Shown here in pieces: positions 23,930 through 32,415 of a stretch of DNA of 64,000 bases. Below the pieces are notes generated by a model. It did not search any database, was not told the DNA's origin, and saw nothing but the letters and a program-made list of their open reading frames with translations. The stretch lies in NCBI GenBank assembly GCA_016873895.1, contig VGVV01000002.1, forward strand, positions 314,152 through 378,151. The letters run 5' to 3'. Within the stretch, counting starts at the first letter, position 1. The number at the start of each line of letters is the position of its first letter. Source of the stretch: Ignavibacteria bacterium (lineage in GTDB: Bacteria; Bacteroidota; Ignavibacteria; Kapaibacteriales; Kapaibacteriaceae). The position numbers were made by a program, and so were the translations under genes.

Positions 23930-24805
23930 TTAAGCAGCCATGCGTTCAGCATTTTGTATGCGCTGAAGCCGCATGGACCTTGTTCTGAACTTGGGGACAA
24001 ACGCTCCAAGAATGTACGTCCGGATGAGATACCACCAAATGCTACGTTCAAGGAGAGATCGATCAATTGTATGCGCTATAGCAGCATGGTTCTTTGGTGC
24101 TAGACTCCAGTGGGTACCTGCCTTGTCGTGATGAACCGTATGGAATCCATTGTTAAACAGCATGAGATTGAGAATGCCAGTAAAATTTCTGGAGTGATTC
24201 ACAGGCGACTCTTCATCGGCATGAACATGTTGCACGAAGTTGAATAAGAGTACTGCAAACAGTCCAACTTGCTGGGGAATGATGACATACAACAGGGCCT
24301 TGCGCCAATCTATAAGCAGCGCGGCACCGATCCATACACCTAGGGCAACATACTGCATCGCAGAGAGCCAGAACTTTCTGCGGTCGGACCCATATAGCTC
24401 TTTGAGATAGTCCCTGATAGGCTTTTGCTGATGGTAGGAGCTTACCATTGGATAGATCAACAACATCAATAGATGATTCTGCTCCGTGAGCCGATACGTG
24501 ATGGTATAGTCACCCTCACGATTGTTCAGTGCATGGTGGTTCTTGTTGTGCGTTGGTATCCAGCCAAATGCAGGAAAGCCATAGAAGACGGTCAACCAAT
24601 AATCGGTCAGGTGGTTCAGTGTACTATTCCGAAAAATCGGAAGGTGATTGTGGTTATGAGCGATCACCGTTACGGCTATTGACAAAAACAGGTAGAATGG
24701 ATACAGCCACCAATTCAGAGCCGGCATAGACCATATGTAGAAGAATAGAGTAGTTGTAACGAGCATGTAACCGATTGTTCGGCGATCTGCCTTGTAACGT
24801 AGCAT
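23930..24805 (-). CDS. Membrane fatty-acid desaturase family protein
   Basis: It has three His boxes (HNHNH, HNKNHH, HTVHH) and four TM helices. Confidence 0.65.
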   Translation of the reverse strand: MLRYKADRRTIGYMLVTTTLFFYIWSMPALNWWLYPFYLFLSIAVTVIAHNHNHLPIFRNSTLNHLTDYWLTVFYGFPAFGWIPTHNKNHHALNNREGDYTITYRLTEQNHLLMLLIYPMVSSYHQQKPIRDYLKELYGSDRRKFWLSAMQYVALGVWIGAALLIDWRKALLYVIIPQQVGLFAVLLFNFVQHVHADEESPVNHSRNFTGILNLMLFNNGFHTVHHDKAGTHWSLAPKNHAAIAHTIDRSLLERSIWWYLIRTYILGAFVPKFRTRSMRLQRIQNAERMAA

Positions 24806-24900
24806 TGTGACGACTTCTTCTTGTGTAAAATATCTGCCCGATGAAGATACGGCAATTCACTATGTTGAATCACGACATTTCTTCATAATTGGAGCCAATC

Positions 24901-25332
24901 ATGAAAAACAACGTTTCCATTTGCATTGCTCTCGTAGTGTTGTTCTTGAGTGCTTTCTCACCGCGTGAATTGTATGGCGACAATGCGGTCGGAATCCAGC
25001 TTGGTGAGCCGGGCACCGCTGGGGTATCGCTGCGGTTTGACAACATCGCAATTGGTGCTGCATGGAATATCGACAACGGATATCTGCATGTAAATCTTGA
25101 CTATTGGGCAGATCGCGGAACATTGGCCAAGCCGATTGATTGGTTCTACGGATACGGGGCTGATGTTGGCTTGGGCGACGAGTACAGGGTCGCTGCACGC
25201 ATCCCCGTTGGCATGATATGGGAGCCAAACAAGCAGTTTGAAGTTTTTGGTCAGGTAGCACCCGGACTTAAGGTCCTGCCCAACACGGACTTCTACTTTG
25301 GCGCTGCTGTTGGTGTGCGATACCGCTTCTGA
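24901..25332 (+). CDS. Small outer-membrane beta-barrel-like protein
   Basis: Signal peptide, alternating hydrophobic pattern and a C-terminal ...GVRYRF. Confidence 0.4.
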   Translation: MKNNVSICIALVVLFLSAFSPRELYGDNAVGIQLGEPGTAGVSLRFDNIAIGAAWNIDNGYLHVNLDYWADRGTLAKPIDWFYGYGADVGLGDEYRVAARIPVGMIWEPNKQFEVFGQVAPGLKVLPNTDFYFGAAVGVRYRF

Positions 25333-25335
25333 CTG

Positions 25336-26001
25336 ATGCTACCTACTCAATTTTTCGATTTTTTTGCTGCGCTTCGTGATCACAACAGCAAGGAATGGTT
25401 CGACGAGCATCGTTCTGAGTACGAGCGGTTTGTGAAGAAGCCGTTTGCATCTCTCGTGCAGCAGCTCATCGATAAGATTCGCCGTATCGATCCATATGTT
25501 CTGCCGACGGCTTCGAATGCGATCTTTCGGATCAATCGCGACATTCGCTTTTCGAAGGACAAAACACCCTACAAGACCTCCACGGGCGCATTCATAAGTC
25601 GCTATGGGAAGAAGGCGCATGGGATGCCGGGATTGTATGTCGAGGTGTCATACGATAGAGCAGGGATTGCAGGGGGCACATATATGCCTGACAAGGGTCA
25701 GCTCGAGCGTATTCGCGATCTTCTCATGCATGAAGGCGCAGCCTTTCGTGCGGCCACGGAAAGCAAGAAATTTATCAAGGCCTTCAGTAGTGTTCAGGGC
25801 GAACGCTCCAAGATTCTGCCGAATGAATTCAAGGAGGCGGCGCAACGCGAGCCCCTTATCTATCACAAACAACTCTATTGGTGGAAAGAACTTTCGCCGG
25901 AGGTGTTTCTTGCGAACGACTGTTGCGACGTACTCTTCGAGCACTATATGTCGCAGCGAGATGCGCAGATTCTCCTTGAGTCTGCGTTGTACGATAATTA
26001 G
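25336..26001 (+). CDS. TIGR02453/DUF2461 family protein
   Basis: 221 aa that resembles this conserved hypothetical family (HNSKEWF ... IFRINRDIRFSKDKTPYK). Confidence 0.5.
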   Translation: MLPTQFFDFFAALRDHNSKEWFDEHRSEYERFVKKPFASLVQQLIDKIRRIDPYVLPTASNAIFRINRDIRFSKDKTPYKTSTGAFISRYGKKAHGMPGLYVEVSYDRAGIAGGTYMPDKGQLERIRDLLMHEGAAFRAATESKKFIKAFSSVQGERSKILPNEFKEAAQREPLIYHKQLYWWKELSPEVFLANDCCDVLFEHYMSQRDAQILLESALYDN

Positions 26002-26043
26002 CAGAATGTAACACTGCAATTCAAGAACTTTCAGCGTTAGCAC

Positions 26044-27921
26044 ATGTTAAAACCGATTACTCTGGACATGCTCACAGAAGAGCTACGATTACAGGCAGAG
26101 AAGTACCTCGAGCCATTTGAGCTCCGTGAACATGAGTATCTCTACAAGGCTGGAGATCAGGCAGACAGAGGGTATCTCGTAGACCAGGGCGAGCTGCGAC
26201 TCGAGGTCGACACCGAAGAACTCGATGCAGAGCGGGTTCTGGAGATTGCCCCCGAAGGCGTATTCATAGGCGAGGGTGGCCTCTTGGGCATAGAGCTTCA
26301 TGCCGTCAATGCCATTGCCGGAACGGATGTACGCGGACGCAGTCTCTCCCGCGATGCCATGCTGCGCATGGAGTCCGATGATCCAGTGCTAGCGGCACGG
26401 ATATACCAAGGACTCGGTAAGGCCGCAACGGCCAAGCTTATGGCTGCAGTCTCACATATCACGGAATATCGCTTTGCTCACCACGGTCATACCGCAGAGA
26501 TCGACGTCATGGTGCACAATGCGCGAAAGGCACAACAGGCTTTTGTTGGTTGGTCTGAGAAGAGAGTCGATGACCTGCTCTACGCTCTGTGCGAGCCCAT
26601 CATCGCCAACGCCGTTGCACTGGCAGAAGATGCTGTTGCCGAAACGCACATGGGAAATGTTCGTGATAAGACACTCAAGCATGTAAATGCCGCCCTTGGA
26701 GTATATGAGCATATCGTTGGCAAGACCGGTTCTGGTGCTATGCCTAAGGGAGCGTCGTCCGGCGTGATTGAAGTGGCAGATGCAATGGGTGTGCTGTTTG
26801 GACTTATTCCCGCAACCAATCCGGTTTCTACAACGTGCTTTAAGGCACTCATTTCGGTAAAATCGCGCAACGCAATCATCCTGAGTCCTAATCGCATAGG
26901 CAGCAAGGTTGTTGTCAAGACCGTAGACATGATGCGCGAGGTACTCTGCGCGCACAGCGCCCCGGAAGATTTGATTCAAGTAGTGCGCGAGCGTCAGAGT
27001 AGACAAACAACGGCGATGTTCATGCATCACAAGGGCGTGGACCTCGTACTTGCAACAGGTGGGGCGTCGATGGTGCGAGCGGCATACAGCTCAGGAACAC
27101 CGGCAATAGGGGTAGGACCAGGCAATGCACCGTGTGTTATCGCATCTGATGCAGATGTCGATCATGCTGCTGATTCGATAGTAAAGAGCAAATCCTTCGA
27201 TAATGGTGTGATCTGTGGTGCCGAACATAACCTCGTATGTGTGGCGAGGAATTATGACGCGCTCGTAGCATCATTAGAGCGACATGGAGCAGCTGTTCTT
27301 TCGCCGGATGAAACAGCGCTCTTTATGGCTAAAGGGGCTTCAACAGGCGTGCTTGGACGTCGTATTGTGGCACAAGATCCCGAGGCAATCGCAGAGTATG
27401 TTGGTATCAGTCGGCCGTATACGATTCGCCTTATTGTCATACCGGTAACGGAGATCAATGAGCACGATCCTATGTCACGGGAAAAGACAGCCCCGGTTCT
27501 CAGTCTCTTCTGTGCATCTGATGATGAGCAGGCTATCACAATGAGCGAGCAGATTCTTGCAATTGATGGCACTGGGCATACAGCGATGATCCACACAGCG
27601 AGTAAAAATCTAGCTCGAACATTTGCTGCCCGCATGCATGCCAGTAGGATTTTGGTAAACTCACCTGGCACGCAGGGAATCATGGGAGCATGCACGGGGC
27701 TCACACCGTCCTTCACACTTGGATGCGGCACCTATGGTGGAACTTCGACAACCGACAATGTCTCATTTCAGCATTTGGTAAACATCAAACGCATTGCTTG
27801 GTATTTGCCGCACAAGAAAACTGCAGAGATTGTGATGCGCTTACAATCGTCGGCCTCGTACCTCCTGCGCATTGTGCGTTTCATCGGCGCGTGGCGCAGA
27901 TTTGTTGCAGGGGTAAAGTAA
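26044..27921 (+). CDS. Fusion of an N-terminal cyclic-nucleotide-binding (CAP effector) domain with a CoA-acylating aldehyde dehydrogenase (AdhE N-terminal / EutE-PduP type)
   Basis: The ALDH blocks match the AdhE N-domain ([28 protein letters not shown]; [31 protein letters not shown]; [19 protein letters not shown]; [23 protein letters not shown]). The N-terminal ~130 aa have a cNMP-binding beta-roll pattern ([24 protein letters not shown]...GEGGLLG). There is no Fe-ADH domain. Confidence 0.75.
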
Positions 27922-29498
27922 TGAAGACCAAGAGTACACCCGTACGCGTTGTTGCGCTAGGTGGTGGATATGCAACGATCAATGTTCTCAAGTCTCTGAA
28001 GGGACACATTGCCTCTGGACGCGTCCATTTGACCGTGATCGACAAGAATAACTACCACGTGTTTCATGGATTGGTCGCCGAGATGCTTACCGGCAAGATT
28101 CAGCCGGGTAATATCACATCTCCGGCCAGAATGGTGTTCCGTGGTGCAGACTTTCATAATGCGGAAGTGCTGCATGTTGATTTTCAACATAAGCGCGTAA
28201 CAACTCGACGCTACCTCGATGGACATCAGCATACCGTAGAATACGATCATCTGGTGATAGGACTTGGCTCGCGAGATAATCTCTCCCGCTACACGGGTGT
28301 TGCTCAGAACACATTTCGACTAAAATCATACTGGGATGTGTTTGAGCTGAAGAATCACATCACTGGCATTCTTGAGCTTGCAGAGATAGAAACCGACCCC
28401 ATCGAACGTGAGCGACTACTCACGTTTGTGATTGCTGGCGGAAATTTTGCTGGTGTGGAAGTTGCCACAGAGCTTGATGAGTTTCTCGAGTATCTCACTA
28501 AGCACTACTACCCACGACTGCGCTACGAGGAGATGCGCATCATCCTTCTCAGCGGTGATAAGACCATCCTACCGGAGCTTGCAAAGCGTCAGCCGCGACT
28601 CGTGCGTTATGCTTCACGATTTATCGCAGAAAAGACGCGTATCTCGGTGCACCTCGAAACCTATATTTCTGCTGCAACACCGATGAGTGCCACAACAAGC
28701 ACTGGATTAGAGTTTCAAGCACGAACGATCATCTCCTGCACAGGCAATGCTCAACCGGAGATCTTTGATCAATGGTCGTTTGAACGCGATCCTGTGGGCA
28801 GACTCATCACAGATGCAACGTTACGTCTCGTTGGTCAAGAGCATGTATGGTCGGGTGGCGATTGCGCTGCTGTGCCAAGTCCCCAAGGAGGGTATTGTCC
28901 GGGTCTTGCACTATACGCCATCAAGGCTGGTGAGCATATCGGACGCAACATCGCAAGGATGATCGATGGTAAGCCCCTTACCCCATTTTCATTTAAGGGG
29001 CTTGGAGATGCATGTTCATTGGGCAGACGCAATGCTGTTGGGCATCTCTACGGGATAGGATTTACCGGCTTTCTTGCGTTCGTTACATGGCGGCTCTTCA
29101 TGCTCAAGTATCTGCCTGTGTGGAATAGACGAATACGGACAATGTCGAACTGGCTCATGTGGCCACTCATTGGACGTGACATCACGAGTATTCGATCCAA
29201 CGATGCCACACAGGTGAGAGAGCGTTTGTTCCAACCCGGACAAACGATCTATCTAGAGGGAGAAACCGGTAACTGCATGTACCTCATACGCGAAGGCAGC
29301 GTTGATGCCTATCAAGACGGCACATTGCTTCAGACGCTGGGTCCGGGAAGCTACTTTGGCGAGTTAGCAATCTTCAACGAAACAACGAGGTCTCGCACCA
29401 TCGTCGCAACCACAGAAGTACGTGTGCTCGAGATCCAGCGTGAAATGGCAAAGCTGTTGCGCCGGCACTTTGAGCCAAAAACTATTAAGCCCTTGTAA
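27921..29498 (+). CDS. Type-II NADH dehydrogenase (NDH-2, FAD pyridine-nucleotide disulfide oxidoreductase) with a C-terminal cyclic-nucleotide-binding domain
   Basis: It has two Rossmann GxGxxG/A motifs (VVALGGGYAT, FVIAGGNFAGVE). The C-terminal ~120 aa form a canonical cNMP-binding domain (FQPGQTIYLEGETGNCMYLIREGSVDAY...FGELAIFNETTRSRTIVA). Its start overlaps the upstream stop (TAATG). Confidence 0.75.
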   Translation: MKTKSTPVRVVALGGGYATINVLKSLKGHIASGRVHLTVIDKNNYHVFHGLVAEMLTGKIQPGNITSPARMVFRGADFHNAEVLHVDFQHKRVTTRRYLDGHQHTVEYDHLVIGLGSRDNLSRYTGVAQNTFRLKSYWDVFELKNHITGILELAEIETDPIERERLLTFVIAGGNFAGVEVATELDEFLEYLTKHYYPRLRYEEMRIILLSGDKTILPELAKRQPRLVRYASRFIAEKTRISVHLETYISAATPMSATTSTGLEFQARTIISCTGNAQPEIFDQWSFERDPVGRLITDATLRLVGQEHVWSGGDCAAVPSPQGGYCPGLALYAIKAGEHIGRNIARMIDGKPLTPFSFKGLGDACSLGRRNAVGHLYGIGFTGFLAFVTWRLFMLKYLPVWNRRIRTMSNWLMWPLIGRDITSIRSNDATQVRERLFQPGQTIYLEGETGNCMYLIREGSVDAYQDGTLLQTLGPGSYFGELAIFNETTRSRTIVATTEVRVLEIQREMAKLLRRHFEPKTIKPL

Positions 29499-29534
29499 CT
29501 ATTTGAGCTACAAGGGCTTAACGTTTGTCGGTCG

Positions 29535-29607
<73 letters not shown>

Positions 29608-29644
29608 ATAGGGAGCACGAAGATACACAAAAAATCGTAAGGCA

Positions 29645-29770
29645 CAAGGTACGAGGTACAAGGTACAAGGTACGAGGTACGAGGTACGAGGTACGAGGTA
29701 CAAGGTTCTAGGTACGAGGTACAAGGTACGAGGTACGAGGTACAAGGTTCTATGTACGAGGTACAGGGTA
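29645..29770. repeat. Octanucleotide tandem repeat, GGTACGAG/GGTACAAG, about 15 copies
   Basis: Read directly from the sequence. It sits 40 bp upstream of tRNA-fMet, in the divergent tRNA/pheT intergenic region. Confidence 0.85.
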
Positions 29771-29949
29771 AGGGATGTGTTCCGTCATTCCCACGAAAGG
29801 ACGTCACCACAGAGAAAGCGGTGGCGGGAAACCTGGAGAGCCTTGTATCCGGTACCTAGTCCCTAGTACCTCCTCCCGGTTCTTGTGCAAAACTCCAACC
29901 GACCCTATGCTCTTGCTGCGACTATCTTTGTCGTTGATTAATAGAGAGT

Positions 29950-32415
29950 TTGCTTGAGATGAAAGTCTCGCACAAATGGCTGTGTGATTTTGTGGAATTG
30001 CCGTCCGATCGGTGGACGGTTGAGAGGGTGTCGCGCGTGCTTACTGACCTTGGTTTAGAGGTCGAAGACGTTGTCGATGCATCTGCGGTGCTGGCCAACA
30101 TTGTTGTTGGGAAAGTGCTCGAAAAACAGCCGCATCCTAAGGCCGATAAGCTCTCCGTGTGTACAGTTGATGTTGGTGCAGAAACCAAGACCATTGTTTG
30201 TGGTGCTGCCAACGTTGCGGCCGGCCAAACAGTGCCGGTGGCGCTGGTTGGCGCAGTTGTTCCGTCGGCTGGGTTTGCAATCGAGGAGCGTCCGCTTCGC
30301 GGTGTTACTTCGCAGGGTATGATCTGCTCGCAGGCAGAGCTGAACTTGGGTGAAGACGCATCGGGCATCTGGGTGCTCGATGATGCGCTCGCTGCTGGTG
30401 CGCCCCTTGCCGAAGCCCTCAAGATCGATGATGTGATCTACGACATCGCCATTACGCCGAACCGTGCTGATTGCCTTTCGCATGTTGGGATTGCGCGCGA
30501 GCTTGCTGCATACGCTGCGGTCTATGATGACGCGCCGGTTGTTGTGCCGCAACCGCGAACGCTTGATGCTGCGTCGCAGAGTAATGATGCATCGGTTGAG
30601 GTTAGGGTTGAGAACGCTGATGTGTGCTCACACTACATCGCACACGTGGTAACGAATGTGCGAGCAGTTGAGAGTCCGGCGTGGCTCAAAGACAGATTGA
30701 TTGCCCTTGGACTGCGTCCAAGTAATGTGATCGTTGATATCACGAATTACATCAATATGGAGATGGGGCAGCCCCTTCATGCATTCGACATGGCAAAGCT
30801 TCGCGGCAATGCCATTGTTGTTCGTACGCCGCATGCTGATGAATCCGCGATAACGCTGCTTGATGGGAAGGAGCGTAAGCTCGATGCTGAAATGCTTCTC
30901 ATCTGTGATGGAGAGCGTCCAATTGCCGTGGCTGGTGTGATGGGTGGACAAAACTCAGAGATCGATGAGACCACAACAACGGTTGTGATCGAGTCCGCCT
31001 ACTTCCATCCAACATCGATCCGTCGCACGGCAAAGAAGCTTGGTCTTAGCACCGATGCGTCGTACCGGTTTGAGCGAGGAGTAGACCCAGCAGGTGTGCG
31101 CTCGGCGGCAGATCTTGCTGTTGCCATGCTGTGTGATCTTGCAGGGGGCAGCTCGGGAATTAGCACGGAGATTGGTTCGCCAATAACGCCGGCTGACCCG
31201 ATTGCGGTTGAATACAATAGGGTACGCTCGCTACTTGGCATTGCCATCGACGATGCGCGCATCGACCTGATGCTTCGATCGCTTGGGTTCGGAGTCGTTG
31301 ATGGCGGCGGTAACGCCAAACGATCTGTAGAGCCCCCTTCATGGCGCGCAGACGTTCGCATCGAGGCCGATATTGCTGAGGAAGTGATGAGGCTCTATGG
31401 AATTGACCGGATACCAACCATAGTGCGCGGAGCATCGCTGGGTGGTGGATCCCAGCTTCCTGAGTCGTTGCGTGCTGGTGGACCTCATGGGTACCAGCAG
31501 CGCAGCCGTATACGTACATCACTAGCTGCGCGTGGTTATGTGGATTGTGTCACGAACGTTCTTGGGTCTCCCGAAGAAATACTTGACGGCTCTGCACCTG
31601 TGATGCTTCGCAATGCCCTTGGACATGAGTTCTCGGCAATGCGATCATCGCTGATTCCATCTCTGCTGCGGGTTGCCTCCCATAACATTCGTCACGGTGC
31701 AGCTACTGCTCGATTAATGGAGTTCGGCAACGTGTTTGAACATGACACGTCAAAGGAATTCGGTATCAAGCAGAGCGAAGTGCTTGCGATGGTTCTGTGC
31801 GGACAAACCGAACAGCATTGGAGTGGGAAGAGTAGAGCCCTAGACATATTCGATCTCGTGGGCGACGTGCAACTTGTTTCATCAGGCATTGTAACGGTTC
31901 CTGATGATTCGCCACAAGCCCCCTTTACACAAAACACGTTGAGGCTATTTACCGACAACGTTTGTATTGGCGTTGCGGGTCAGCTAGATCCAGGTTTTTG
32001 CAATGCATATGGCATCGACATAGATGCTATGGCTGCAGTATTAGACGCGCGCAGTATACCAGTTAAGAAACACAGGTATCGTCAATACGCAACCTTCCCA
32101 GCCATCGAAAGGGACGTAGCATTGGTTGTGCCACAATCTGTTACTGCCGGACAAATCCTGAATATTGTGCAACAATGTGGTTCGGATACTGTAGAGACGG
32201 CACGCATTTTTGATGTATTCTCCGGCGGTTCGCTGGTGCAAGGATACAAGAGCATTGGTATCAGAATAGTCTTTCGCTCTAGCGAGAGAACGCTCACTGA
32301 TGCTGATGTAGATCCAATTATTACAACGATTCTCGATCGATCAATCAGTCAGCTACAGGCACACGTGCGTGGTTTGACAATTGAACAACCATCTCAAGGG
32401 GAGATAGTACAATGA
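29950..32415 (+). CDS. pheT: Phenylalanine--tRNA ligase beta subunit
   Basis: 821 aa containing the tRNA-binding, B3/B4, B5 and FDX-ACB domains in order. Confidence 0.9.
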   Translation: MLEMKVSHKWLCDFVELPSDRWTVERVSRVLTDLGLEVEDVVDASAVLANIVVGKVLEKQPHPKADKLSVCTVDVGAETKTIVCGAANVAAGQTVPVALVGAVVPSAGFAIEERPLRGVTSQGMICSQAELNLGEDASGIWVLDDALAAGAPLAEALKIDDVIYDIAITPNRADCLSHVGIARELAAYAAVYDDAPVVVPQPRTLDAASQSNDASVEVRVENADVCSHYIAHVVTNVRAVESPAWLKDRLIALGLRPSNVIVDITNYINMEMGQPLHAFDMAKLRGNAIVVRTPHADESAITLLDGKERKLDAEMLLICDGERPIAVAGVMGGQNSEIDETTTTVVIESAYFHPTSIRRTAKKLGLSTDASYRFERGVDPAGVRSAADLAVAMLCDLAGGSSGISTEIGSPITPADPIAVEYNRVRSLLGIAIDDARIDLMLRSLGFGVVDGGGNAKRSVEPPSWRADVRIEADIAEEVMRLYGIDRIPTIVRGASLGGGSQLPESLRAGGPHGYQQRSRIRTSLAARGYVDCVTNVLGSPEEILDGSAPVMLRNALGHEFSAMRSSLIPSLLRVASHNIRHGAATARLMEFGNVFEHDTSKEFGIKQSEVLAMVLCGQTEQHWSGKSRALDIFDLVGDVQLVSSGIVTVPDDSPQAPFTQNTLRLFTDNVCIGVAGQLDPGFCNAYGIDIDAMAAVLDARSIPVKKHRYRQYATFPAIERDVALVVPQSVTAGQILNIVQQCGSDTVETARIFDVFSGGSLVQGYKSIGIRIVFRSSERTLTDADVDPIITTILDRSISQLQAHVRGLTIEQPSQGEIVQ

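What the first reader, a model, noticed from the sequence alone, without database searches (positions are those of the whole stretch)
26044..29498. Translationally coupled pair of redox enzymes, each fused to a cyclic-nucleotide-binding domain (cNMP-ALDH + NDH-2-cNMP)
Gene 1 is a CoA-acylating aldehyde dehydrogenase, equivalent to the N-terminal ALDH half of AdhE. It lacks the Fe-ADH half and instead carries an N-terminal CAP-type cNMP-binding domain. Gene 2 is a type-II NADH:quinone oxidoreductase carrying a canonical C-terminal cNMP-binding domain (FGELAI...RSRT). The stop of gene 1 overlaps the start of gene 2 (TAATG), so the two are co-expressed. CAP-family domains normally regulate transcription factors, kinases or channels, so their presence on two central redox enzymes suggests allosteric second-messenger control of the NADH/acetyl-CoA balance: acetyl-CoA to acetaldehyde consumes NADH, and NDH-2 drains NADH to quinone. 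I do not know this architecture as a described system.
Basis: partly seen in the sequence, partly recalled or inferred. Interest (0 to 1): 0.8.

Follow-up and report, generated by a model that had tools for sequence, protein, structure and literature searches.

The report
Paired redox enzymes with cyclic-nucleotide sensor domains

Summary
Gene 1 (26044-27921, 625 aa) has an N-terminal cyclic-nucleotide-binding (CNB) domain and an AdhE-N/EutE-type acylating ALDH with the catalytic Cys, and no Fe-ADH half. Gene 2 (27921-29498, 525 aa) is an NDH-2-like flavoprotein with a C-terminal CNB domain. The stop and start overlap (TAATG).

Both fusions are widespread, across roughly seven or more phyla. 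They sit in one cluster in about half of the loci sampled, often as ALDH > CNB-patatin lipase > NDH-2, and sometimes beside a class III cyclase.

Three corrections apply:
- In the window's clade the ALDH CNB domain has lost the phosphate-binding Arg-Ser (His86-Ala87; 11 of 11 clade members). It keeps the CNB fold and is under purifying selection, so canonical cNMP sensing is expected only for gene 2 (Arg490-Ser491).
- Gene 2's whole subfamily lacks the NDH-2 AQxAxQ quinone motif and the NADH-selective acidic residue, so it is "NDH-2-like".
- The ALDH substrate is unknown, because it scores below every NCBIfam equivalog cut-off.

I found no paper describing the module. It is a new variant of a known kind: enzymes fused to CNB domains.

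The parts
26044..27921 (+). Gene 1: CNB-domain + CoA-acylating aldehyde dehydrogenase fusion, 625 aa (public protein MBM4178385.1, Ignavibacteria MAG)
26119..26370 (+). Gene 1 CNB beta-barrel (Pfam cNMP_binding, residues 26-109); modelled fold matches CRP/PKG/GlxR
26263..26319 (+). Gene 1 phosphate-binding cassette, residues 74-92 ([19 protein letters not shown]). Gly76-Glu77 are kept, but the cassette Arg-Ser is replaced by His86-Ala87, so it is non-canonical.
26383..26484 (+). Predicted long helix (residues 114-147) linking the CNB domain to the ALDH, in the position of the CRP C-helix
26479..27813 (+). Acylating ALDH catalytic domain (residues 146-590). Catalytic Cys391 (27214-27216) aligns with AdhE Cys246. 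No Fe-ADH domain follows.
27814..27918 (+). Clade-specific C-terminal tail of 35 aa. It is amphipathic and is the most conserved segment of gene 1 (dN/dS 0.015).
27909..27923 (+). Coupling junction: AGGGG (27909-27913), 7-nt spacer, then TAA (27919-27921) overlapping ATG (27921-23)
27921..29498 (+). Gene 2: NDH-2-like flavoprotein + C-terminal CNB domain, 525 aa
27945..28886 (+). Two-dinucleotide-binding flavoprotein core (Pyr_redox_2, residues 9-322). Motifs: G14-G-G-Y-A-T, G173-x-N-x-x-G178-x-E180, W310-x-x-G313-D314.
28908..28925 (+). Position of the NDH-2 quinone-site motif AQxAxQ; here it reads A330-L-Y-A-I-K335, with both Gln absent
29013..29180 (+). NDH-2-type C-terminal amphipathic (membrane-anchoring) region, residues 365-420
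29223..29444 (+). Gene 2 CNB domain (residues 435-508). Canonical cassette at 29352-29408 (Y478-FGELAIFNETTRSRTIVA-496) with Gly480-Glu481 and Arg490-Ser491.
29484..29522 (.). Perfect 17-bp hairpin overlapping gene 2's stop codon; probable terminator shared with the convergent tRNA-Met

Best explanation
SHOWN. This is a real two-gene module that moves as a unit and is translationally coupled. Gene 1 is an AdhE-N/EutE/SucD-type CoA-acylating aldehyde dehydrogenase with an N-terminal CNB domain. Gene 2 is a membrane-peripheral NDH-2-like flavoprotein whose CNB domain follows the C-terminal amphipathic helices. The module is one form of a widespread, unstudied gene set. The fuller form is CNB-ALDH > CNB-NTE/patatin lipase > NDH-2-CNB, sometimes next to a class III nucleotide cyclase.

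INFERRED MECHANISM.
1. The ALDH oxidises an aldehyde to an acyl-CoA and makes NAD(P)H.
2. The co-translated NDH-2-like partner re-oxidises that NAD(P)H at the membrane, passing electrons to a quinone or similar acceptor. Together the two enzymes act as an aldehyde-to-respiratory-chain line.
3. A cyclic nucleotide binds gene 2's canonical CNB domain (Gly480-Glu481, Arg490-Ser491) and switches this electron outlet. It probably does so by repositioning the adjoining membrane-anchor and dimerisation helices.
4. In the window's clade the ALDH CNB domain has lost the phosphate-binding Arg-Ser (His86-Ala87) but is still under purifying selection. There it most likely serves as a dimerisation or regulatory domain, or senses a ligand without a phosphate, rather than binding cAMP or cGMP.

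The stated confidence covers the whole package. My rough estimates for the parts are: the shown part about 0.9; cNMP control of gene 2 about 0.65; the producer-drain coupling about 0.4.
For: Domains and catalytic residues.

CNB fold of gene 1.

Cassette statistics:
- Gene 2 family: Arg in 117 of 120, Ser/Thr next in 114 of 120.
- Gene 1 family: Arg in 108 of 120, but 0 of 11 in the window clade (His x9, Gln, Tyr).

Purifying selection, window vs L083: dN/dS is 0.13 for the gene 1 CNB, 0.15 for the gene 2 CNB, and 0.07-0.08 for the catalytic cores.

The pair moves as a unit: L098/L099 (70% identity) keep only these two genes in common with the window and keep the stop/start overlap.

Cross-phylum linkage:
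- Nocardioides L001
- Albimonas L002
- Thermomicrobiales L004
- L090, L093, L095, L096
- L102
- L109, tricistronic with abutting genes

The ALDH keeps an NDH-2-like partner of the same subfamily even where that partner has no CNB domain (Albimonas, L102).

Fusion evidence that this NDH-2 subfamily works with NAD(P)-dependent dehydrogenases: ApbA (ketopantoate-reductase family)-NDH2-CNB fusions of about 911 aa.

Cyclases adjacent to family members: FHA-cyclase in L001, L092 and L094; CHASE2-cyclase in L097 and L100.

Precedent for a CNB domain directly activating a fused enzyme: mycobacterial Pat (PMC5861322).
Against: - No cyclase, phosphodiesterase, patatin or other CNB gene lies in the 64-kb window.
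- Gene 1's cassette is non-canonical here, so two-enzyme cNMP control fails for this organism.
- Pairing is absent in about half of the informative loci. Seven ALDH-anchored lineages lack the NDH-2 partner (L006, L007, L097, L100, L104, L107, L108), and five NDH-2-anchored loci lack the ALDH (L085, L086, L089, L105, L110).
- The AQxAxQ quinone motif is absent (0 of 120 have Gln at its first Gln position), and the acidic NADH-selectivity residue is His/Ser. The acceptor and the nucleotide used are therefore unproven.
- The ALDH reaction is reversible and its substrate is unknown. Neighbours point in different directions: POR/AFOR in Chloroflexi (acetyl-CoA); MMPL, ACP and acyl-AMP ligase in Albimonas and L097 (lipid); class III aminotransferase fusions (semialdehyde/amine).
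- No ligand-binding, activity or interaction data exist.
Confidence: 0.45

Rival explanations
1. One reading: both enzymes are allosterically switched by the same cyclic nucleotide to balance NADH against acetyl-CoA. Acetyl-CoA is reduced to acetaldehyde, consuming NADH, while NDH-2 drains NADH to quinone.
For: Across the wider family both CNB domains have canonical cassettes (108/120 and 117/120). Cyclases sit next to family members. In Chloroflexi the ALDH lies beside pyruvate:ferredoxin oxidoreductase and an aldehyde:ferredoxin oxidoreductase. In Nocardioides it lies near acetyl-CoA synthetase. The best hits are AdhE-N and EutE.
Against: In the window clade the ALDH CNB domain lacks the phosphate-binding Arg-Ser. 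Co-expressing an NADH consumer with an NADH drain at a fixed ratio is less economical than pairing a producer with a drain. The ALDH scores below the equivalog cut-offs for AdhE and EutE (425 vs 951; 400 vs 620). Other neighbourhoods point to lipid or semialdehyde substrates.
Confidence: 0.2
2. A membrane-lipid or aldehyde-handling module. The ALDH acts on lipid-derived acyl thioesters or fatty aldehydes, linked to the CNB-patatin (NTE-type) lipase, and the flavoprotein is an accessory oxidoreductase. The window carries a reduced version without the lipase.
For: The tricistronic order ALDH > CNB-NTE-patatin > NDH2 occurs in three separate loci (L001, L096, L109). Albimonas has ALDH > ACP > acyl-AMP ligase > NDH2-like > PPTase > CNB-patatin, with an MMPL transporter nearby. 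L097 has ALDH > MMPL > TP_0789-like. Gemmatimonadales has NDH2-CNB > DUF374 > CNB-patatin. A fatty-acid desaturase lies 1.2 kb upstream in the window. Gene 1 has an amphipathic, strongly conserved tail.
Against: The window has no patatin, ACP or MMPL-type lipid genes next to the pair. The closest characterised ALDHs use C2-C4 substrates. The desaturase is not syntenic in the 70% relatives. The tail's hydrophobic moment is not exceptional.
Confidence: 0.2
3. The CNB domains are ligand-independent structural, dimerisation or assembly modules, or they sense something other than a cyclic nucleotide in both proteins. No second messenger is involved in this organism.
For: Gene 1's cassette is non-canonical yet under selection. 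No cyclase lies in the window. CNB families with altered cassettes bind other ligands (Table 1 of PMC2246266). Trypanosome PKA binds nucleosides instead of cAMP (PMC10959531, abstract).
Against: Gene 2 keeps every canonical cassette residue, and this is conserved family-wide. Cyclases are genomically linked to family members in at least four lineages.
Confidence: 0.12
4. A Pycsar/CBASS-like anti-phage system in which a cyclase signal activates CNB-fused effectors.
For: PADLOC gives weak, domain-level hits of gene 2's CNB domain to Pycsar proteins (E 9e-9 to 8e-6), and the L097 cyclase hits PycC (E 3e-28). Patatin lipases are CBASS effectors (PMC12480259). An MBL protein with an Apyc1-family Pfam hit lies in the Chloroflexi locus.
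Against: Gene 1 has no PADLOC hit, and gene 2's hits cover only the generic CNB domain. The catalytic domains are housekeeping-type redox enzymes with intact active sites. The linked cyclases carry CHASE2 or FHA sensor domains typical of ordinary signalling. The window context is housekeeping (pheT, RNase Y, efflux pump) with no cyclase.
Confidence: 0.03

Closest known systems
Mycobacterial protein acetyltransferase Pat (Rv0998 / MSMEG_5458): CNB domain fused to a GNAT enzyme
   Same: A bacterial CNB domain is fused N-terminally to an enzyme, and cAMP binding directly activates catalysis (PMC5861322). It is linked to acetyl-CoA metabolism, because it acts on acetyl-CoA synthetase. In the Nocardioides locus an acetyl-CoA synthetase sits beside the cyclase.
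   Different: The output domain is an acetyltransferase, not a redox enzyme. Pat is a single gene, not a coupled pair or triad. The window's ALDH CNB domain lacks the cassette Arg.
'Bact_Pyrredox' CNB family of Kannan et al. 2007 (PMC2246266, Table 1, family 13)
   Same: [quoted passage not shown]
   Different: That family was described as having tandem CNB domains and was not tied to NDH-2, to membrane helices or to an ALDH partner. Gene 2 has a single CNB domain. No function was assigned. I did not test whether gene 2 belongs to that family.
[quoted passage not shown] 9mqy, C. thermarum 4nwz, S. aureus 5na1, yeast Ndi1)
   Same: These are the best solved-structure relatives (E 3e-39 to 1e-15). 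Shared features are two Rossmann domains, the catalytic Glu of GxGxxGxE (E180), WxxG-D, and C-terminal amphipathic helices.
   Different: AQxAxQ is replaced by ALYAIK (family consensus A-[IL]-[YFW]-A-x-x). The acidic residue at the end of the NADH beta-strand is Ser/His. There is an extra C-terminal CNB domain.
AdhE N-terminal half, EutE/PduP and SucD: CoA-acylating aldehyde dehydrogenases
   Same: Full-length homology of the ALDH domain (E 1e-92 to 1e-77). The catalytic Cys aligns, and the NAD-binding GxGxxG region is conserved.
   Different: There is no Fe-ADH half and no microcompartment context. It has an N-terminal CNB domain and a C-terminal amphipathic tail. It scores below all NCBIfam equivalog cut-offs, so it is a separate subfamily of unknown substrate.
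NTE/PNPLA6-7-type CNB-patatin lysophospholipases and the cAMP-sensing EAL enzyme Bd1971
   Same: These are further examples of CNB domains fused to enzymes (PMC12710771 and PMC7103881; PMC6717892, where the Bd1971 CNB domain is a fold match). A bacterial CNB-NTE-patatin gene is the third member of the fuller operon.
   Different: No patatin gene is present in this window, and the catalytic chemistry is different.

Membership tests
CNB / CAP-family cyclic-nucleotide-binding domain: gene 2 C-terminus | Profile match above the curated threshold | tested here: met
   PF00027 at 71.8 bits vs GA 27.5; PKG/PKA CNB domains in the PDB at about 3e-30
CNB / CAP-family cyclic-nucleotide-binding domain: gene 2 C-terminus | Phosphate-binding cassette G-E...R-[ST] | tested here: met
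   G480-E481 and R490-S491 are present. Arg is in 117/120 homologs and Ser/Thr in 114/120.
CNB / CAP-family cyclic-nucleotide-binding domain: gene 2 C-terminus | Binds cAMP or cGMP and changes the activity of the fused domain | not testable with these tools
   Needs ITC or DRaCALA and enzyme kinetics
CNB / CAP-family domain: gene 1 N-terminus | Profile match and eight-stranded beta-roll plus helices fold | tested here: met
   PF00027 at 36.8 bits vs GA 27.5. Model pLDDT 88, pTM 0.80. Foldseek matches CRP, GlxR, PKG and 3gyd at E about 1e-10 and TM 0.7-0.83.
CNB / CAP-family domain: gene 1 N-terminus | Phosphate-binding cassette Arg-[ST] | tested here: not met
   His86-Ala87 in the window; absent in 11/11 full-length clade members; present in 108/120 of the wider family
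CoA-acylating aldehyde dehydrogenase (AdhE-N / EutE / PduP / SucD group) | Homology over the whole ALDH domain, with the catalytic Cys conserved | tested here: met
   6tqh at E 2e-92 over residues 150-586. Cys391 aligns with AdhE Cys246 and is invariant in 36 homologs.
CoA-acylating aldehyde dehydrogenase (AdhE-N / EutE / PduP / SucD group) | Reaches an equivalog cut-off that would name the substrate (AdhE, EutE-type ACDH, SauS) | tested here: not met
   425.6 vs 951; 399.8 vs 620; 329.2 vs 600
AdhE bifunctional enzyme | C-terminal Fe-dependent alcohol dehydrogenase domain | tested here: not met
   No Fe-ADH Pfam hit. The AdhE alignment stops at AdhE residue 446 of 891, and the protein ends 39 aa later.
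NDH-2 (type II NADH:quinone oxidoreductase), features as in PMC5299459 | Two dinucleotide-binding motifs, including the conserved Glu of GxGxxGxE, plus WxxG and GD | tested here: met
   G14-G-G-Y-A-T; G173-x-N175-x-x-G178-x-E180 (E invariant); W310-x-x-G313-D314 invariant. The second Gly is Asn here; it is Ala in C. thermarum NDH-2.
NDH-2 (type II NADH:quinone oxidoreductase), features as in PMC5299459 | Quinone-site motif AQxAxQ, or AQxAxR / APxAxQ (together 87% of 1762 NDH-2s) | tested here: not met
   ALYAIK in the window. None of 120 homologs has Gln at the first Gln position of the motif.
NDH-2 (type II NADH:quinone oxidoreductase), features as in PMC5299459 | C-terminal amphipathic membrane-anchoring helices | tested here: inconclusive
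   NDH2_C at 24.2 bits vs GA 27.7 in the window, though the precomputed hit is present in most homologs. The region aligns with the 9mqy C-terminal helices. Hydrophobic moment is 0.50.
NDH-2 (type II NADH:quinone oxidoreductase), features as in PMC5299459 | NADH:quinone oxidoreductase activity | not testable with these tools
   Needs an enzyme assay. The Ser/His at the acidic NADH-selectivity position suggests NADPH may be accepted. That reading follows the general Rossmann-fold rule and rests on my own knowledge; the residue data are.
Translationally coupled operon pair | Stop/start overlap with an upstream SD-like element, conserved in relatives | tested here: met
   TAATG in the window and L083; TGATG in L098/L099; AGGGG or AGGAG 7 nt upstream. 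Coupling itself was not measured.
Full cNMP enzyme cluster (cyclase + CNB-ALDH + CNB-NTE-patatin + NDH2-CNB) | Patatin and cyclase genes adjacent | tested here: not met
   tblastn with patatin and three cyclase queries finds nothing in the 64-kb window. Both are present in L001, L092, L094, L096 and L109.

The most novel reading that the evidence does not exclude
Many bacterial phyla carry a self-contained, enzyme-level cyclic-nucleotide circuit. A sensor cyclase (with a CHASE2 or FHA domain) makes a cNMP. That cNMP directly switches up to three CNB-fused, membrane-associated enzymes: an acylating aldehyde dehydrogenase, an NTE-type lipase, and an NDH-2-like NAD(P)H:acceptor reductase. This would give post-translational second-messenger control over electron entry into the respiratory chain and over acyl and aldehyde turnover, a bacterial counterpart of cAMP-driven lipolysis. 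The Ignavibacteria/Kapabacteria lineage would have trimmed this to the ALDH-NDH2 pair and retuned the ALDH sensor to a ligand without a phosphate.
Probability: 0.3. Interest if true: 0.75.

Novelty: new variant of a known kind. Interest (0 to 1): 0.6.

Why it matters
Bacterial cAMP/cGMP signalling is understood mostly through transcription factors, and direct allosteric control of metabolic enzymes is documented for only a few cases (Pat, Bd1971). No respiratory NADH dehydrogenase and no CoA-acylating ALDH has been shown to be gated by a cyclic nucleotide.

A conserved, cross-phylum operon that puts CNB domains on both enzymes would be a concrete and easily testable case of second-messenger control over redox balance and electron entry into the quinone pool. 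The operon often also carries a CNB-lipase and sits beside its own cyclase.

The family also offers natural comparison pairs:
- ALDH versions with a canonical Arg cassette versus a His cassette.
- NDH-2 partners with and without a CNB domain.

Finally, it flags a distinct NDH-2-like subfamily with an altered acceptor site, whose physiological substrates are unknown.

Tried and rejected
Only five fusion loci came back, so there is no proper taxonomic census.
2. The metagenome scan anchored on the NDH2-CNB C-terminus gave only 14 loci, and five were too short to judge.
3. The exhaustive profile search with the gene 1 CNB + helix alignment was meant to size the family. The top hits were dominated by proteins with many CNB repeats. 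About 20 of the best 150 were single-stretch N-terminal matches, so the count of 520 at E<=1e-30 is not a family size.
4. Literature searches for NDH-2 + CNB, ALDH + cNMP, Pfam domain names and Rv2565 found no description of the module.
5. I looked in the window for a cyclase, phosphodiesterase, patatin or a third CNB domain and found none.
6. An Rfam scan of 24500-30000 for a leader or riboswitch found only the tRNA.
7. The promoter scan gave fewer sigma-70-like sites than shuffled sequence. No promoter was assigned, and the 42-bp gap to the upstream DUF2461 gene leaves co-transcription open.
8. A PADLOC scan for a defence-system reading gave only generic domain hits, so I rejected that reading.
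9. The hydrophobic moment of the gene 1 tail (0.56) does not exceed the maximum within the ALDH domain (0.57). I therefore treat membrane binding by the tail only as a suggestion.
10. I ran no further search on a full-length model, because the tool returns no inter-domain error estimate and domain packing could not have been judged.

Full report
**1. What is in the sequence**

The ORF list and the raw sequence show gene 1 at 26044..27921 (+, 625 aa). Gene 2's ATG at 27921 shares one base with gene 1's TAA at 27919-27921, and gene 2 runs to the stop at 29498 (525 aa). An AGGGG element lies 7 nt upstream of that ATG.

Pfam gives these hits:
- Gene 1: cNMP_binding at residues 26-109 (36.8 bits, gathering score 27.5) and Aldedh at 146-556.
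- Gene 2: Pyr_redox_2 at 9-322, NDH2_C at 365-420 (24.2 bits, just under 27.7) and cNMP_binding at 435-508 (71.8 bits).

The exact proteins are in public collections as MBM4178385.1, 'aldehyde dehydrogenase family protein [Ignavibacteria bacterium]', and its neighbour. NCBI calls the neighbour as 602 aa from an upstream ATG, while JGI and ENA call it as 525 aa. The N-termini of 35 homologs support the 525-aa start.

**2. The catalytic domains**

*Gene 1.* Its ALDH part aligns over its whole length with the ALDH half of AdhE (6tqh, E 2e-92), with EutE-type enzymes (3k9d, 5j78), and with acylating succinate-semialdehyde dehydrogenase (8cei). Cys391 falls on AdhE Cys246 and is invariant in 36 homologs. 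The AdhE alignment ends at AdhE residue 446 and no Fe-ADH domain follows.

Every NCBIfam equivalog is missed by a wide margin: AdhE 426 vs 951, EutE-type 400 vs 620, SauS 329 vs 600. This is a separate acylating-ALDH subfamily whose substrate is not named by homology.

*Gene 2.* Its best solved relatives are all NDH-2s: 9mqy at 3e-39, C. thermarum 4nwz, S. aureus 5na1, B. subtilis YjlD and yeast Ndi1. I checked it against the NDH-2 features compiled from 1762 sequences in PMC5299459:
- Present: both dinucleotide motifs with the key Glu (E180), WxxG-D, and the C-terminal helices.
- Absent: the quinone-site motif AQxAxQ, which reads ALYAIK. None of 120 homologs has Gln at the motif's first Gln position.
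- Changed: the acidic residue that normally closes the NADH beta-strand is Ser here and His in most homologs.

I therefore call it NDH-2-like. The acceptor and the NADH/NADPH preference remain open.

**3. The sensor domains**

*Gene 2.* Its CNB domain is canonical, with G480-E481 and R490-S491. Arg is present in 117 of 120 homologs and Ser/Thr follows in 114 of 120.

*Gene 1.* Its N-terminal domain is a true CNB fold. An AlphaFold model built with 22 homologs (pLDDT 88, pTM 0.80) shows the beta-roll followed by a 34-residue helix. It matches M. tuberculosis CRP, GlxR, PKG and stand-alone CNB domains at TM 0.7-0.83.

Its phosphate-binding cassette reads [19 protein letters not shown], with His86-Ala87 in place of Arg-Ser. 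All 11 full-length members of the window's clade (65-100% identity; Ignavibacteria/Kapabacteria) lack the Arg (His x9, Gln, Tyr). By contrast, 108 of the 120 best homologs keep Arg, and 101 keep Arg-Ser.

The domain is not decaying. dN/dS against a 93%-identical relative is 0.13. That compares with 0.15 for gene 2's CNB domain and 0.07-0.08 for the catalytic cores.

CNB families with altered cassettes are known to bind other ligands or none (PMC2246266; trypanosome PKA binds nucleosides, PMC10959531). So in this organism canonical cNMP sensing is expected for gene 2 only.

**4. Is the pairing meaningful?**

Both fusion architectures are common. The top 120 clusters for each query all carry the CNB domain. 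Sources include Ignavibacteria, Kapabacteria, Nocardioides, Chloroflexi, Gemmatimonadota, Albimonas and Gammaproteobacteria, plus Thermomicrobiales, Solirubrobacterales and Verrucomicrobiota.

I inspected neighbourhoods using gene calls and tblastn.

*The pair travels as a unit.* A 70%-identical relative (L098/L099) shares only these two genes with the window, and the stop/start overlap is preserved (TGATG). A 93% relative (L083) is fully syntenic.

*Loci anchored on the CNB-ALDH:*
- An NDH-2-like gene is in the same cluster in the window clade, Nocardioides antri (L001), Albimonas (L002), Thermomicrobiales (L004) and L102.
- It is absent in L006, L007, L097, L100, L104, L107 and L108.

*Loci anchored on NDH2-CNB:*
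- The ALDH is adjacent in L090, L093, L095, L096 and L109.
- It is absent in L085, L086, L089, L105 and L110.

*Recurring features:*
- In Albimonas and L102 the partner flavoprotein lacks a CNB domain but belongs to the same subfamily (35% identity to gene 2) and has the same AL[W]AI motif. The ALDH-flavoprotein partnership is therefore older than, or independent of, the sensor on the flavoprotein.
- Three separate loci have abutting genes in the order CNB-ALDH > CNB-NTE-patatin > NDH2-CNB (L001, L096, L109).
- Class III cyclases sit alongside in L001, L092 and L094 (FHA-cyclase) and in L097 and L100 (CHASE2-cyclase).
- The Chloroflexi locus also has a small CNB protein and a metallo-beta-lactamase-fold protein.
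- Gemmatimonadales carry ApbA-NDH2-CNB fusions next to NDH2-CNB and CNB-patatin.

This sample is small and not corrected for phylogeny. Even so, recurrence across phyla with changing flanks argues against chance.

**5. Mechanism**

*Shown:* two intact enzymes, one intact cNMP sensor, one altered but selected sensor, tight coupling, and recurrent linkage.

*Inferred:*
- The flavoprotein subfamily repeatedly partners with NAD(P)-dependent dehydrogenases, by adjacency with the ALDH and by fusion with ApbA. The most economical reading is a producer-drain pair: aldehyde + CoA + NAD(P)+ gives acyl-CoA + NAD(P)H, and the membrane-bound flavoprotein re-oxidises the NAD(P)H.
- Gene 2's CNB domain follows directly after the membrane-anchoring helices. 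cNMP binding could therefore control membrane docking, dimerisation, or access to the acceptor.
- The ALDH in this clade carries a 35-residue amphipathic tail that is its most conserved segment (dN/dS 0.015). This hints that it too sits at the membrane or contacts its partner.

The direction of the ALDH reaction, its substrate, the acceptor and the ligand are all untested. Neighbourhood hints for the substrate conflict with one another:
- acetyl-CoA/acetaldehyde in Chloroflexi (POR, AFOR);
- lipid in Albimonas and L097 (ACP, acyl-AMP ligase, PPTase, MMPL);
- semialdehyde/amine where a class III aminotransferase is fused or adjacent.

**6. Comparison with what is known**

The principle of a CNB domain fused to an enzyme and switching it directly is established for mycobacterial Pat (PMC5861322) and for the EAL enzyme Bd1971 (PMC6717892). 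A 2007 census already listed a bacterial family of CNB domains attached to a Pyr_redox domain, without assigning a function (PMC2246266).

I found no paper that mentions a CNB-ALDH fusion, a CNB-bearing NDH-2, or this operon. Database names are generic. A defence-system reading (Pycsar-like) has only domain-level PADLOC hits and was rejected.

**7. Verdict**

Three points qualify it for this window:
- the ALDH sensor is non-canonical;
- 'NDH-2' and 'acetyl-CoA' are not secured;
- no cyclase or lipase partner lies within the 64 kb.

It is a new variant of a known kind (CNB-regulated enzymes). Interest is moderate to high because the hypothesis is directly testable with two recombinant proteins.

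Noticed in passing
window 29534-29607 (-) and 29484-29522: A tRNA-Met (CAT) gene converges on gene 2. A perfect 17-bp hairpin overlaps gene 2's stop codon and lies just 3' of the tRNA, with a T-run on the minus strand. It is probably a shared or bidirectional terminator.
   Followed up: partly
window 29639-29770: A tandem array of about 17 heptamers (AGGTACG/AGGTACA; it also scores at period 21) lies between the tRNA-Met and pheT. Its function is unknown.
   Followed up: no
window 27690-27920: The NCBI record MBM4178386.1 starts gene 2 at the ATG at 27690 (602 aa), overlapping gene 1 by 232 nt. Homolog N-termini and the JGI/ENA calls support the 525-aa start at 27921, so the NCBI start is probably mis-annotated.
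   Followed up: yes
window 27814-27918: Gene 1's C-terminal 35-aa tail (…[21 protein letters not shown]) is its most conserved segment (dN/dS 0.015). It is amphipathic and occurs only in the clade with >=48% identity and in Albimonas. It may be a membrane- or partner-binding element.
   Followed up: partly
window 23930-26001: Upstream of gene 1 lie a divergent fatty-acid desaturase (-), a 147-aa ORF with no Pfam hit, and a DUF2461 gene that ends 42 bp before gene 1. All are syntenic in the 93% relative L083 but absent in the 70% relatives. Whether they are co-transcribed with the pair is unresolved.
   Followed up: partly
L100:3855-7951 (Chloroflexi metagenome contig): A compact apparent cNMP circuit lies upstream of a CNB-ALDH: a small CNB protein, a metallo-beta-lactamase protein with an Apyc1-family Pfam hit, FecR and a CHASE2-cyclase. 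Pyruvate:ferredoxin oxidoreductase and an aldehyde:ferredoxin oxidoreductase are nearby.
   Followed up: no
L105:1-7796 (Gemmatimonadales MAG) and L086: Two NDH2-CNB paralogs flank DUF374 and a CNB-patatin gene. In L105 one paralog is fused N-terminally to an ApbA/ketopantoate-reductase-family domain (911 aa). This is a fusion of an NAD(P)-dependent dehydrogenase with this flavoprotein subfamily.
   Followed up: partly
L002:4575-15428 (Albimonas) and L097:9878-14115: The CNB-ALDH is linked to an MMPL transporter, a TP_0789/DUF1329-like protein and a 416-aa protein with no Pfam hit in two distant genomes. In Albimonas an ACP, an acyl-AMP ligase and a PPTase are also present. Together these suggest a lipid-related pathway.
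   Followed up: no
proteins P0054, P0107, P0087, P0088, P0104: Further architectures occur in the same ALDH family: CNB-ALDH-class III aminotransferase fusions (about 990 aa) and FHA-CNB-ALDH fusions (about 720 aa).
   Followed up: partly
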